The position numbers are program-made. Below, one piece after another: positions 36,901-39,900 of a stretch of DNA of 64,000 nt (within the stretch, counting starts at the first letter, position 1; the number at the start of each line of letters is the position of its first letter). Location of the stretch: contig CAWFQC010000024.1 in assembly GCA_963817645.1 (NCBI GenBank), forward strand, positions 102,256 to 166,255, in the 5' to 3' direction. Origin of the DNA: an uncultured Gammaproteobacteria bacterium (GTDB lineage: Bacteria > Pseudomonadota > Gammaproteobacteria > UBA6002).

Positions 36901-39900
36901 TCACAATTTTTTTCGGTAAGTTTACGCAATCCTTTTCCTTCAGAACCCATTACTATTCCCAATGCTTCGCTATAGTCTACTTCCGTATATAGTGTCTTGG
37001 CATGTTCACTGGTACCATACAACCAAATTCCACGTTCCTTTAGCATTTCTAAGGTTCGCGCTAAATTAGTGACTTGAAAAAGGGGGTAAAAAGAGTGGCC
37101 CCTGAAGCCACCTTACTCACCACAGACGTCATTCCACAGGCACGATCCCTAGGAGCAATTACTGCATGCACTCCAGCCGCATTCGCCGTGCGAAGGCAAG
37201 CACCTAAATTATGTGGGTCTTGTATCCCATCAAGTATTAGTAGAAAGGGTAAAGCTATATTGTCCAAGTAATCTTCCAAATTTTTATACTGCTCTAGCGA
37301 TTTTATGACAGCGACTATCCCTTGATGATGGGTAGTATCACTTAAGATATTTAAGTCGTTTCGGGTTTGCATTCTAACTTCAACACCTCTTTGCTTGGCA
37401 ACACGCAGCAATTCACTCATTCTTTCGTCATTGCGATGACTATCGGCAACCAGGAACTCAATTCTCTCCAATTGCTTTAGCAAACACGCGTTAACGGCAT
37501 GAAACCCATAGATGATGACATTTGACATAGGTTATCCATTCTTAATTTAATAAAAAATTGCATGTTAACCTCGCACGGAGTTTAAAGCATCATAATTCAG
37601 TGGAACTATTGCTCTGGCTGCTGGCACTTGAGCTACCCCCTCTCCCGCGCTATAATTTCTGCTAGAATCAATAAGTTACCAGCGGGAGAGGGTTGGGGTG
37701 AGGGCAAAGTTGGGAGCAGAGTTTGCCCTCACCCCAACCCTCTCCCGCTGGTAACTTATTGATTCTAACAAAGATTTTTTGCGCGGGAGAGGGGGCGGCT
37801 GCAAGTGCTACATGAGGCTGTTATCTTACTAAAAACTCCGAGGTATGTTAGCTTAAGTTTCCTTACTTGTGTAGATACCTATGGGCTTGTCCGCGGGACG
37901 ACGGCAATTTTTTATTAAATTAAGAATACAGACTTCCTTAGGCGTTAGAATCCCTAAGAATAGACGACAAGAGTATAATAATTTTGGCTCTTCTGGAATT
38001 CCTGTGGTATTTTAAAAAAAAATTCCCCTTTTTTAAAGGAGGAAACTCTTGTCAACCACGGGAACTCCGGAAGAGTCATAATTTTTCTCTCAACTTTAAA
38101 ATGTAAACAAATGAAAACAATAAACCGAATAAGTTTTGTTTTACTCTATGCCTTGCTCCTTGCATTATACGCCTGCAGTTCCTTTAATCCTGTCAGGGAA
38201 GAACAAGAATATGGCGTAACTACCACCCCCCATCAAATAAAGGCCCAGCCTAGAAGTCGTTATGGGAATCCTGATTGTTATAGCGTGGATGGAAAAACTT
38301 ATTATGTAATGACATCAGCAAAAGGGTATTGCAAAACGGGTTTAGCCTCTTGGTATGGTACAAAGTTTCATGGTAAAAATACCTCAAGCCGAGAACCGTA
38401 TGATATGTTTAAATTAACAGTCGCAAGCCGAAACCTACCCCTGCCTACTTATGTTGAAGTGACTAATTTAGAAAATGGCAAAAAAATTATCGCAAAAGTA
38501 AACGACCGTGGACCATTTAAACCAGACCGTATTATTGATTTATCTTATGCTGCCGCAACAAAATTAGGTTTTGCTAATAGAGGAACTGCCAACGTTCAAG
38601 TTAGGGCGATTGAGGTATGTGAGATGCAAAATGCTAAAAACAATTCTGGGATGATCTTGGCTAACAATAAAGAAATTCCAGAAATTGAAATTAACCCAAT
38701 TGCTTTGCCTCAACCAACCCAAGGGGTAAAAGAAGTATTACTTGAGCGCTATCTTCAGCTAGGAGCATTTTTGAATAAAGAGAATGCCGTGCGGTTAAAA
38801 AATCAAATTAGGCTATATACTGAAGCCCCTATACTAATTAAAGAGGGGGCTCTTGATGAAAAAACCATTTATCGAGTACAAATCGGACCGTTCAAAAGTT
38901 CTCAAGACTCTGATACCCTATTGCATCTTTTAAATGCTCATGGTTTTGATGTGATTACTGTTTTTAGCTAAGAATTAATGATAAATTAGAACGCTGGCCC
39001 ATTTTAAGAGAAGGAATTAGCAATGAGAAAAAGTGGAATTAAATATTTTCTGGTTATATTTATGTTAATTTGTAGCATAAATGACGATGCTATCTCGAAA
39101 ACTAAATCATCTACAGAGAATACAGAGAATAGTCATTTAGCACAAACAACCCATTCTGCAAATCAACCCATTATCCCTAACCCGCCGACTGTTGATGCTA
39201 AGGGCTATATTTTAATGGATGCCAATACCGGAACCATATTAGCGGGAAACAATATAGAGGGTCGAATGGCTCCAGCAAGCTTAACTAAGCTGATGACACT
39301 TTATCAAGTCGCTGCTGCACTTAGGTTGAACCGGGTACACATTACCGACAAAGTTACCATCAGCGAAAAGGCTTGGCGCACTGGCGGCTCTAAGATGTTT
39401 ATAAAAGTGGGAGACCAAGTACCTTTAAACGATCTGATTCAAGGTATCGCCGTAGTTTCTGGGAATGATGCTTGTGTTGCCGTGGCCGAACATCTAGCTG
39501 GCACTGAAGAGTCATTTGCTGACCTAATGAATCGTTCAGCTAAAATCTTAGGGATGAAAAATACTCACTATACGGACTCCACTGGACTACCAGACGCTTC
39601 GCTTTACACTTCGCCTAAAGACCTTGCTATTTTAACGCGAGCAATTGTGAATCAATTTCCTGAGTATTACCATTGGTACTCGCAAAAATGGTTCAATTAT
39701 AATGGCATAAAGCAACCCAACCGTGACATTTTATTATGGCGCGATTCATCGATTGAAGGAATGAAAACAGGGCATACAGAAGATGCTGGCTACTGTTTAG
39801 TTTCAACTTCAAAACGAAATGACATGCGGTTAATTTCAGTTGTGATGGGCTCTTCTTCTACACGTGCAAGAGCGGCTGCCAGCTTAGCGCTTTTGAATTA

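What the first reader, a model, noticed from the sequence alone, without database searches (positions are those of the whole stretch)
37985..38078. Repeat family C: about 95-bp MITE with ccggaattcctgtggt / accacgggaattccgg termini, seven copies including truncated ones
Full copies are at 37985-38078, 48152-48245, 53305-53403 and 60220-60312. A perfectly palindromic 85-bp variant is at 15718-15790. Truncated copies are at 20022-20100 (next to the truncated abiEii) and at 23140-23222 (next to the groEL terminator).

Each has an A-run, a C-rich tract and an RBS-like ggagg/aaagga segment. The elements could donate promoters, terminators or RBSs. The density, about one per 9 kb, is high.
Basis: seen in the sequence. 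Interest (0 to 1): 0.6.

Follow-up and report, generated by a model that had tools for sequence, protein, structure and literature searches.

The report
ISL3-type MITE family, seven copies
A roughly 100-bp non-coding mobile element, a miniature inverted-repeat transposable element whose ends look like those of ISL3 insertion sequences, sits seven times in the intergenic DNA of an uncultured gammaproteobacterium; it is real, but it is an ordinary kind of selfish repeat.

Summary
The repeat family is real. The window holds four full copies of 92-104 bp, two one-ended remnants and one 68-bp perfect palindrome, and a profile search finds no others. All seven are intergenic.

They are 23-nt inverted repeats, GGCTCTTCCGGAATTCCTGTGGT / ACCACGGGAATTCCGGAAGAGCC.

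Each two-ended copy is flanked by an AT-rich 8-bp direct repeat, three perfect and two 7/8. The chance of a perfect match is about 7e-5 per site. This is the footprint of transposition.

The 8-bp duplication and the GGCTCTT... ends match published ISL3-family insertion sequences at 20-21 of 24 positions, and an ISL3-type MITE is already described in Microcystis.

The full copies are 80-87% identical to each other, so the family is old. The arms show no structure-preserving covariation, and no promoter or terminator signal is shared across copies. No transposase lies in the window.

The family was not found in 185,579 species genomes, in JGI metagenomes, in viral contigs, in plasmids, or in four relatives (IleS 72-74% identical). 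In one relative ileS and lspA are 24 bp apart, against 217 bp here, where one copy sits between them.

Verdict: a new, lineage-restricted member of a known kind, of low interest. The genome-wide copy number and the parent IS could not be tested.

The parts
37986..38077 (+). Full MITE copy, 92 nt, with an 8-bp internal deletion relative to the others. It lies between a truncated SpoU-type methyltransferase gene (37061-37528, -) and the rlpA-like gene (38111-38971, +).
   Evidence: nhmmer E=1e-28. The TIRs match at 19 of 23 positions. RNA fold -41.6 kcal/mol, z -7.2. Neighbouring genes identified by Pfam.
37978..37985 (.). Target-site duplication ATAATTTT, left copy. The right copy is at 38078-38085.
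   Evidence: 8/8 identical. Chance of 8/8 is 6.7e-5 per site.
48149..48248 (+). Full MITE copy, 100 nt, with terminal bases mutated to AGCTC...GAGCA. It lies in the divergent spacer between feoA/feoB (-) and a ComP-type pilin gene (48281-48655, +). The flanking 8-mers 48142-48149 and 48248-48255 read AATAATCA and AATAATCT.
   Evidence: nhmmer E=9e-34. TIR and 7/8 flanking repeat. RNA fold -44 kcal/mol, z -6.2. Neighbouring genes. A relative's feoA-pilin spacer has no copy.
53304..53407 (+). Full MITE copy, 104 nt, inside the ileS-lspA spacer. Both genes are on the - strand, so their transcript would carry the element's reverse complement.
   Evidence: nhmmer E=5e-30. The TIRs match at 21 of 23 positions. 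ileS and lspA identified by Pfam. The spacer is 217 bp here against 24, 51, 113 and 332 bp in relatives, none of which has this element. Logan contig L003 ends inside this copy.
53296..53303 (.). Target-site duplication AATTTAAC, left copy. The right copy is at 53408-53415.
   Evidence: 8/8 identical.
60215..60314 (+). Full MITE copy, 100 nt, the most decayed TIR (17 of 23). It lies between the convergent genes rpsT (59320-59688, +) and ORF 60480-62264 (-).
   Evidence: nhmmer E=2e-32. TIR. RNA fold -25.7 kcal/mol, z -2.0.
60207..60214 (.). Target-site duplication GATTTATT, left copy. The right copy is at 60315-60322.
   Evidence: 8/8 identical.
15715..15782 (.). A 68-nt perfect palindrome built from two right-end-type arms: GGCTCTTGCGGAATTCTGTGGTTGACAAGGGG, TTCC, then the reverse complement. 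It is flanked by AAAATTTT (15707-15714) and AAAATTTA (15783-15790). It lies in the divergent spacer upstream of the nrdA-like ORF that starts at 15943.
   Evidence: Sequence. The arms pair 32/32 and the flanking repeat is 7/8. nhmmer matches model positions 56-99, the right arm, on both strands. RNA fold -68.6 kcal/mol, z -16.7.
20046..20103 (+). One-ended remnant: the left TIR plus internal sequence up to model position 58. It abuts the remnant of an abiEii toxin gene (20187-20384, -) next to abiEi (20385-21203, -).
   Evidence: nhmmer E=3e-11, model positions 2-58. Sequence. AbiEi identified by Pfam.
23148..23222 (-). One-ended remnant in reverse orientation: the left TIR plus internal sequence up to model position 77, with the right TIR missing. 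A separate GC hairpin with flanking A and T runs (23232-23255) follows immediately, downstream of the fragmented groEL.
   Evidence: nhmmer E=4e-18, model positions 1-77. Sequence. groEL pieces.

Best explanation

Proposed mechanism:
1. An ISL3-type DDE transposase, encoded elsewhere in this genome or once present in the lineage, recognises the two 23-nt terminal inverted repeats GGCTCTTCCGGAATTCCYGTGGT.
2. It mobilises the roughly 100-bp segment between them.
3. It inserts the segment at AT-rich sites with an 8-bp staggered cut. Repair of that cut leaves the 8-bp direct repeats seen around every two-ended copy.

What is shown: the inverted repeats, the 8-bp duplications, the absence of coding capacity, the intergenic multi-copy distribution, and the resemblance of the ends to published ISL3 ends.

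What is inferred: the identity of the transposase, and the transposition chemistry, which is established knowledge of DDE insertion sequences.

The copies are old (80-87% identical to each other) and are decaying. Two have lost one end and can no longer move.

The 68-nt palindrome is a minimal derivative made of two right ends. It was apparently inserted as such, because it carries its own 7/8 flanking repeat.

Any effect on the host is a by-product. Transcripts that cross a copy would carry a 22-23-bp hairpin. The ileS-lspA copy lengthens that operon spacer about ninefold compared with one relative.
For: - Copies and statistics.
- Termini and flanking 8-mers: three are 8/8 and two are 7/8, against P(8/8)=6.7e-5 and P(>=7/8)=8.7e-4 per random site in this window.
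- All five duplications are at least 75% A+T.
- No ORF of 100 aa or more overlaps any copy. None of the 30 larger window ORFs scanned against Pfam matches a transposase family.
- Published ISL3 elements have matching features:
  - ISArsp7: IR GGCTCTTCGCGGTTGGTGGTGAAT, 8-bp DR (PMC6305408).
  - Microcystis ISL3 copies and a 187-bp MITE: ends GGCTCTTCG, 8-nt DR (PMC11448079).
  - CLJ-ISL3 (ISPpu12-like): IRL GGGTATCCGGAATTTCTGGTTGAT, 8-bp DR TTCTTTTT (PMC7643977).
- The MITE arms align to these IRs at 20-21 of 24 positions. At most 1 of 2000 shuffles does as well.
- The arms show no structure-preserving evolution. 92.4% of cells are paired against 91.0% in shuffles (52 of 500 shuffles reach the observed value), with one compensatory pair (130 of 500). 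This fits protein-binding ends inherited from a master copy rather than a selected RNA.
- Relatives have 'empty' sites: the ileS-lspA spacer is 24 bp in MAG GCA_020063875.1, and no family-C copy occurs in loci L004-L009.
- A short-read contig of the same organism breaks inside a copy, as expected for repeated DNA.
Against: - No ISL3 transposase gene, and no longer element with the same ends, was found. None is in the window, and the rest of the genome could not be searched.
- The 8-bp duplication is not unique to ISL3. By my recollection of ISfinder, IS6, IS66, IS256 and IS1595 also make 8-9 bp duplications.
- The IR similarity rests on gapped alignments of 24-nt strings to three published elements.
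- No presence/absence polymorphism between strains is available. The empty sites come from distant relatives (IleS 72-74% identical) whose spacers cannot be aligned.
- Copy number outside the 64-kb window is unknown.
Confidence: 0.78

Rival explanations
1. It is a MITE, but it is mobilised by a transposase of another family that also makes 8-bp duplications (for example IS6/IS26, IS66, IS256 or IS1595), not by ISL3.
For: No parent IS was found. TSD length alone does not discriminate between these families (family properties recalled from ISfinder).
Against: The terminal GGCTCTTC is identical to the published ISL3 ends. The CCGGAATTYC and GTGGTTGA motifs also have counterparts in the CLJ-ISL3 end. 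Identity is 20-21 of 24, and at most 1 of 2000 shuffles does as well. By my recollection, IS26-type ends (GGCACTGTTGCAAA) and IS66 ends (GTAAGCG) do not resemble these.
Confidence: 0.1
2. The copies are kept because they serve the host as RNA hairpins. On this view they act as transcript-stabilising or RNase III-processing sites, or as terminators or attenuators, for example between ileS and lspA. They would then be functionally comparable to Correia, ERIC or REP elements.
For: There are strong predicted hairpins on both strands, from -26 to -44 kcal/mol with z down to -7. One copy sits inside an operon spacer. On the minus strand, copy 37986-38077 has a hairpin plus T9 that the scan scores as terminator-like. 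The internal sequence is fairly well conserved.
Against: There is no covariation beyond the shuffle controls. The terminator-like pattern occurs in one copy only, and no promoter pattern is shared. Copies lie in divergent, convergent and co-directional spacers without any pattern. Two copies are broken. There is no Rfam match. The hairpin is an automatic consequence of having TIRs.
Confidence: 0.1
3. It is a REP/BIME-type extragenic palindrome spread by a RAYT (IS200/IS605-like Y1) transposase.
For: It is an intergenic, palindromic, multi-copy element.
Against: REPs are 20-40 nt and make no target-site duplication (my knowledge of the family). Here the units are 92-104 nt with 8-bp duplications and ISL3-like ends. 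No Y1 transposase is found among the 30 window ORFs scanned.
Confidence: 0.02

Closest known systems
ISL3-type 187-bp MITE of Microcystis aeruginosa PCC 7806 (PMC11448079)
   Same: Both are non-coding, mostly intergenic and multi-copy. Both have 8-nt target duplications, ends that start GGCTCTTC, and a predicted stem-loop. In both cases mobilisation by an ISL3-family transposase is proposed.
   Different: That element is 187 bp with only 9-nt inverted repeats. Its 31-33 copies are identical and it is demonstrably active, and matching ISL3 copies are present in the same genome. The element here is about 100 bp with 23-nt repeats, its copies have diverged to 80-87% identity, no partner IS has been found, and the host is an uncultured gammaproteobacterium. 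Homology between the internal sequences was not tested, because that sequence is not in the text.
ISL3-family insertion sequences (ISArsp7; CLJ-ISL3/ISPpu12 group)
   Same: The terminal inverted repeats have the same architecture: GGCTCTTC, then CGG..TT, then GTGGTKA. Identity is 20-21 of 24. Both make 8-bp direct repeats, AT-rich in the CLJ-ISL3 example, TTCTTTTT.
   Different: Those elements are 1.4-3 kb and encode a DDE transposase. The element here encodes nothing and is 68-104 bp.
QMITE2 of Coxiella burnetii (PMC5896051)
   Same: It is a small intergenic MITE of an intracellular gammaproteobacterium, with direct repeats of similar length (7-11 nt) and about 50 copies. Its effects on neighbouring transcripts are hypothesised.
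   Different: QMITE2 is 150-190 bp, carries a GTAG REP and is a target for IS1111. The element here has no such features and its ends are different.
Correia (Neisseria), ERIC/IRU (enterobacteria) and RUP (pneumococcus) elements
   Same: These are 100-150-bp intergenic inverted-repeat elements whose transcripts fold into long hairpins. They show how such elements can work when co-opted, through promoters, IHF sites or RNase III processing (review PMC10969869).
   Different: They have different termini and target duplications (TA for Correia and RUP, from my knowledge) and belong to different parent IS families. No promoter or processing signal is demonstrated here.

Membership tests
Prokaryotic MITE | Short (under about 500 bp) with no transposase or other coding capacity | tested here: met
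   The elements are 68-104 bp. No ORF of 100 aa or more overlaps any copy. Three of the six reading frames happen to be open, but a search with the peptides they would encode found no significant protein match (one weak hit, E = 0.55).
Prokaryotic MITE | Terminal inverted repeats | tested here: met
   The arms are 23 nt and 17-21 of 23 positions are complementary in the four full copies. The palindromic variant pairs 32/32.
Prokaryotic MITE | Target-site duplication of fixed length flanking the copies | tested here: met
   All five two-ended copies have 8-bp flanking repeats, three at 8/8 and two at 7/8. Random expectation is 6.7e-5 for 8/8 and 8.7e-4 for at least 7/8 per site.
Prokaryotic MITE | Multiple dispersed copies in the genome | tested here: inconclusive
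   There are seven copies in 64 kb, and a Logan contig breaks inside one copy. An extra 2.5 kb to the left of the window has none.
Prokaryotic MITE | An autonomous IS with the same ends that can supply the transposase | not testable with these tools
   No transposase is found among the 30 window ORFs scanned. The source genome is absent from the searchable collections. The right-arm scans found only one unrelated site, and the literal-TIR scan of viral contigs found none.
ISL3-derived element | 8-bp direct repeats at insertion | tested here: met
   Published ISL3 examples with 8-bp DRs.
ISL3-derived element | Ends resembling ISL3 inverted repeats (GGCTCTTC... / GG.T.T.CGGAATTTCTGGTTGAT) | tested here: met
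   The arms match ISArsp7 and the CLJ-ISL3 IRL at 20-21 of 24 positions. At most 1 of 2000 shuffles does as well. Only three published elements were compared.
ISL3-derived element | A cognate DDE_Tnp_ISL3 transposase in the same genome or lineage | not testable with these tools
   None among the 30 window ORFs scanned. The fetched loci of relatives (L004-L009) list no transposase among their called genes.
REP/RAYT palindromes | A 20-40-nt imperfect palindrome with no target duplication, associated with a RAYT | tested here: not met
   The units are 92-104 nt with 8-bp TSDs. No Y1 transposase is found among the 30 window ORFs scanned.
Any curated RNA family (Rfam 15) | A match at or above the gathering score | tested here: not met
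   There are no matches in the whole window.
QMITE2 (Coxiella) | 150-190 bp, GTAG REP core, IS1111 target | tested here: not met
   The size and termini differ.

The most novel reading that the evidence does not exclude
Some copies may have been domesticated.

- The reverse complement of the element carries a hairpin followed by a T7-T9 run. In the ileS-lspA spacer this could act as a MITE-borne attenuator or RNase III site that uncouples expression of an essential operon.
- The perfectly symmetric 68-nt two-right-end palindrome upstream of nrdA may be actively kept symmetric, for example by hairpin-templated repair or because a dimeric protein binds it, rather than being a recent accident.

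Nothing tested here excludes either reading, and nothing tested supports it.
Probability: 0.08. Interest if true: 0.4.

Novelty: new member of a known kind. Interest (0 to 1): 0.2.

Why it matters
The main value is for annotation. The family explains seven swollen intergenic spacers and probably short-read assembly breaks. One Logan contig ends inside a copy.

It also gives a handle on the mobilome of an uncultured, apparently repeat-rich gammaproteobacterial lineage whose closest sequenced relatives share only 72-74% IleS identity. If the genome-wide density matches the window, about one copy per 9 kb, the family would number in the hundreds. It would then be a useful marker for strain typing, for dating IS activity and for finding the parent ISL3.

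ISL3-derived MITEs are seldom documented. A 2024 review of prokaryotic MITEs does not mention ISL3 at all, so this is a modest addition to that list. It does not open a new biological question.

Tried and rejected
1. Exact-pattern scans with the right arm (TGTCAACCACGGGAANNNCNNAARAG, which matches all four full copies).
   - Scanned 185,579 species genomes and the JGI metagenomes.
   - The only hit was the same Chloroflexi MAG site in both collections. It has no transposase nearby: its neighbours are a PolB, an S24 peptidase and an E2 acyltransferase.
   - By my estimate about 0.5 chance hits are expected for roughly 41 bits of pattern over 1.2e12 positions, so I treat this hit as chance.
2. 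Translating the three open frames of the consensus and searching the 5.8-billion-protein database for miscalled ORFs over other copies. This gave 4 candidates and nothing significant.
3. blastn of the consensus against 72,556 plasmids. Only low-complexity matches to the internal A/C tracts came back, and no end matches.
4. Two viral-contig scans with TIR patterns. One gave 0 hits and the other 1 chance hit lacking the GGCTCTT prefix.
5. Full-text literature search for the TIR core strings. 0 papers.
6. Searching the literature for the run accessions ERR11561019 and ERR12035940, to name the host or source. 0 papers.
7. Looking for extra sequence of the same organism through exact-protein look-ups.
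   - Logan contigs L003 and L011-L014 are 99.96-100% identical to the window.
   - They add only 2.5 kb beyond it, with no copy.
   - Three look-ups found nothing.
8. Promoter and terminator scans around four copies. No shared signal.
9. Covariation test of the arms. Not different from the shuffles.
10. Rfam and tRNA scans. Nothing found.
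Full report
**Observation**

The expectation from dinucleotide-preserving shuffles is 0.21, and none of 100 shuffles reaches 10. The repeat finder recovers the family independently (families D1, D4 and D8).

I built a profile from the four full copies and searched the window at maximal sensitivity. It returns exactly seven loci, and nothing else scores better than E = 0.17:
- Four full copies: 37986-38077, 48149-48248, 53304-53407 and 60215-60314, all in the same orientation.
- Two one-ended remnants: 20046-20103 covers model positions 2-58. 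23148-23222, on the reverse strand, covers positions 1-77.
- One short variant at 15715-15782.

Part of copy 53304-53407 is also seen in an independent short-read assembly of the same organism. That Logan contig, from ERR11561019, is 99.96% identical to window 53379-58132 and stops inside the element. Repeated DNA typically breaks short-read assemblies in this way.

**Anatomy**

The arms are 23 nt long: GGCTCTTCCGGAATTCCTGTGGT on the left and ACCACGGGAATTCCGGAAGAGCC on the right. One asymmetry, T versus C at position 18, is present in all four copies and is therefore ancestral.

The interior runs ATTTTAAAAAAA-TCCCCCTTAATCCCCC-TTTTTCAAAGGAGGAAACTCTTGTCA. Copy 37986 lacks 8 bp of it and copy 53304 has 5 extra bases.

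Immediately outside the GGCTC...GAGCC termini, each two-ended copy is flanked by an 8-bp direct repeat:

| Copy | Left / right flanking 8-mers | Match |
|---|---|---|
| 37986 | ATAATTTT / ATAATTTT | 8/8 |
| 53304 | AATTTAAC / AATTTAAC | 8/8 |
| 60215 | GATTTATT / GATTTATT | 8/8 |
| 48149 | AATAATCA / AATAATCT | 7/8 |
| 15715 | AAAATTTT / AAAATTTA | 7/8 |

For random pairs of 8-mers at these spacings in this window, the probability is 6.7e-5 for 8/8 and 8.7e-4 for at least 7/8. Five out of five is not chance. These are target-site duplications, the footprint of transposition.

**Context**

All seven copies are intergenic, and their neighbours are ordinary chromosomal genes:

| Copy | Neighbouring genes |
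|---|---|
| 15715 | DUF2269-like ORF (14550-15011) and the nrdA-like ORF starting at 15943 |
| 20046 | nrdB and an abiEi/abiEii remnant |
| 23148 | downstream of a fragmented groEL |
| 37986 | truncated SpoU-type methyltransferase gene and rlpA |
| 48149 | feoAB and a ComP-type pilin gene |
| 53304 | ileS and lspA |
| 60215 | rpsT and an unknown ORF |

The copies lie in divergent, convergent and co-directional spacers. Five of the six orientable copies share one orientation, which is not significant. None of the 30 larger window ORFs scanned against Pfam matches a transposase family.

**What it is**

Four properties together define a MITE: short length, no coding capacity, terminal inverted repeats and a fixed-length target duplication.

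The ends and the 8-bp duplication point to one IS family, ISL3. Published ISL3 elements show the following:
- ISArsp7 has IRs GGCTCTTCGCGGTTGGTGGTGAAT and GGCTCTTCGCGTTTCGTGGTGAAT with an 8-bp DR (PMC6305408).
- ISL3 copies in Microcystis, and a 187-bp MITE attributed to them, start GGCTCTTCG and have 8-nt DRs (PMC11448079).
- CLJ-ISL3 of Pseudomonas, an ISPpu12-type element, has IRL GGGTATCCGGAATTTCTGGTTGAT and the 8-bp DR TTCTTTTT (PMC7643977).

The MITE arms align to these at 20-21 of 24 positions: 21 of 24 to each ISArsp7 end and 20 of 24 to the CLJ-ISL3 IRL. At most 1 of 2000 shuffles of the IS end does as well. The arms share GGCTCTTC with the first group, and CCGGAATTYC plus TGGTTGA with the second.

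My recollection of the ISfinder family table is that ISL3 has 8-bp DRs, IRs of 15-39 bp and ends in GG. That agrees with the above, but I did not test it here.

**Mechanism**

An ISL3-type DDE transposase supplied in trans binds the two ends, mobilises the segment and inserts it with an 8-bp stagger at AT-rich sites. The transposase and the chemistry are inferred. The ends, the duplications and the AT-rich targets are observed.

**Age and decay**

The full copies are 80-87% identical to each other. The family is therefore old and not in a recent burst.

On the four-copy alignment, 92.4% of arm cells form standard pairs, against 91.0% after shuffling partners (52 of 500 shuffles reach the observed value). 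There is a single compensatory pair (130 of 500). So the arms are drifting independently, as expected for inherited protein-binding ends and not for a selected RNA helix.

Two copies have lost their right end. The remnant at 20046-20103 abuts a 65-codon remnant of abiEii. This would fit a single deletion that removed the right half of the element and the 3' part of the toxin gene, which is my inference.

The 68-nt variant consists of two right-end-type arms, identical to each other over 32 nt. Each differs from the consensus right arm at about four positions. The variant has its own 7/8 flanking repeat, so it looks like a minimal two-end derivative that still transposed.

**Function**

Single-strand folds are strong: -26 to -44 kcal/mol with z from -2 to -7 for the full copies, and -68.6 kcal/mol with z -16.7 for the palindrome. 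That follows automatically from the inverted repeats.

Consensus scans find no promoter-like or terminator-like site common to the copies. Only the copy with the 8-bp deletion scores as a terminator-like hairpin plus T9, and only on the reverse strand. The GGAGG segment is not conserved. Rfam has no match.

The one place where a by-product effect seems likely is ileS-lspA:
- The spacer is 217 bp here, and the transcript must pass through the reverse complement of the element.
- In relatives the spacer is 24, 51, 113 and 332 bp.
- The 332-bp spacer contains a different palindromic repeat.

**Distribution**

The source organism is an uncultured gammaproteobacterium. Its best IleS matches are 72-74% identical MAG or Logan proteins. 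Apart from the Logan fragments, it is absent from the searchable collections.

A right-arm pattern that matches all four full copies finds no true copy in 185,579 species-representative genomes or in the JGI metagenome contigs. Viral contigs, plasmids, the literature and the 5.8-billion-protein database (searched with the translated open frames) also gave nothing. The syntenic loci of four relatives contain no copy.

Within the limits of exact-pattern searching, the family is lineage-restricted. The only extra sequence obtained, 2.5 kb to the left of the window, has no copy.

**Comparison and novelty**

The closest described thing is the ISL3-type MITE of Microcystis. It has the same end motif, the same 8-nt duplication and the same inferred mobilisation. 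It differs in several ways:
- It is 187 bp with only 9-nt repeats.
- Its copies are identical and active.
- Its partner IS is in the same genome.

QMITE2 of Coxiella, Correia, ERIC and RUP are functional analogues with different ends and different origins.

The element passes every MITE criterion that could be tested, and both testable ISL3 criteria. The partner transposase is untestable here. It fails the criteria for REP/RAYT, QMITE2 and all Rfam families.

It is a new member of a known kind. It is useful for annotation and for studying the mobilome of this lineage, but it is not surprising.

**Scores**

- Interest: 0.2.
- Confidence that it is a transposition-derived MITE: about 0.9.
- Confidence that it is ISL3-derived: about 0.7-0.75.

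Noticed in passing
window 2921-3057, 30026-30259, 30551-30607, 47949-48023, 50320-50462, 59766-59924, 60079-60135: A second, larger repeat family. Its ends are the inverted pair CACTGCCATTAAGTTAAGGG and CCCTTAACTTAATGGCAGTG, and it has an internal palindrome GTCGTCCCGCGACTTGTTCGCGGGATCCAGG (D3/D6/D9/D10). It often lies within 100-150 bp of family-C copies, at 48149 and 60215. It is probably another MITE.
   Followed up: no
window 37722-37793 and 48826-48897; L005 about 12860-12900: A third repeat, CCCTCACCCCAACCCTCTCCCGC...GCGGGAGAGGG (D12). A similar CACCCTCTCC...GGGAGAGGG palindrome sits in the ileS-lspA spacer of a relative at 73% IleS identity.
   Followed up: partly
window 15943-18583 (nrdA-like), 23275-24519 (groEL), 37061-37528 (SpoU methyltransferase), 20187-20384 (abiEii): Several genes are broken into short ORF pieces or truncated. 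The list includes groEL and nrdA, which are normally essential. All three degenerate family-C copies lie in the 15.7-23.2 kb stretch that holds the broken nrdA and the abiEii remnant and ends just short of the fragmented groEL. Logan contigs are 100% identical to the window elsewhere. These particular stretches could not be checked, so the cause may be real pseudogenes or local assembly errors.
   Followed up: partly
window 47900-50462: A mosaic insertion relative to syntenic relatives lies between the pilin gene and ispH. It contains HigB/HTH (49004-49626) and RelB/YafQ (49742-50433) toxin-antitoxin pairs, plus an alanine-dehydrogenase-like gene at 50548-51645. Direct repeats about 1 kb apart bracket parts of it: D11 is 72 nt at 97% identity (48641-48712 and 49638-49709), and D13 is 52 nt at 83%.
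   Followed up: no
window 60511-60657: A 21-nt tandem repeat of at least 5 units, that is a 7-residue protein repeat, lies inside ORF 60480-62264. That ORF has no Pfam or NCBIfam match.
   Followed up: no
window 12606-12770 and 15923-16087; 30060-30175 and 50320-50435: Two long two-copy repeats: 165 nt at 95% identity and 116 nt at 97% (D5 and D7). The first overlaps the start of the nrdA-like ORF and lies near two DUF2269 paralogues (12783-13259 and 14550-15011).
   Followed up: no
L001 5255-5287 (same as L002 14002-14032), Chloroflexi MAG JAFEAS010000064.1 / WBZP01000272.1: The isolated sequence TTTGTCAACCACGGGAAGTCCTGAAGAGCC resembles the right arm of the MITE, ending in GAAGAGCC. No transposase lies nearby. 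It is either chance or a solo ISL3-type end.
   Followed up: partly
L006 6450-6781 (MAG GCA_002429595.1): In this relative the ileS-lspA spacer is 332 bp. It is filled by a different palindromic repeat (GTCATTCCCGCGAAGGCGGGAACCC...) and is partly masked by Ns. A Logan contig of the same protein (L007) also breaks there. The same operon spacer has therefore been colonised independently by different repeats.
   Followed up: partly
L003 1824-4654 versus window 53478-56309: The Logan short-read contig splits ileS into two genes of 228 and 698 aa. The cause is a single 1-bp gap relative to the window, where ileS is intact at 943 aa.
   Followed up: no
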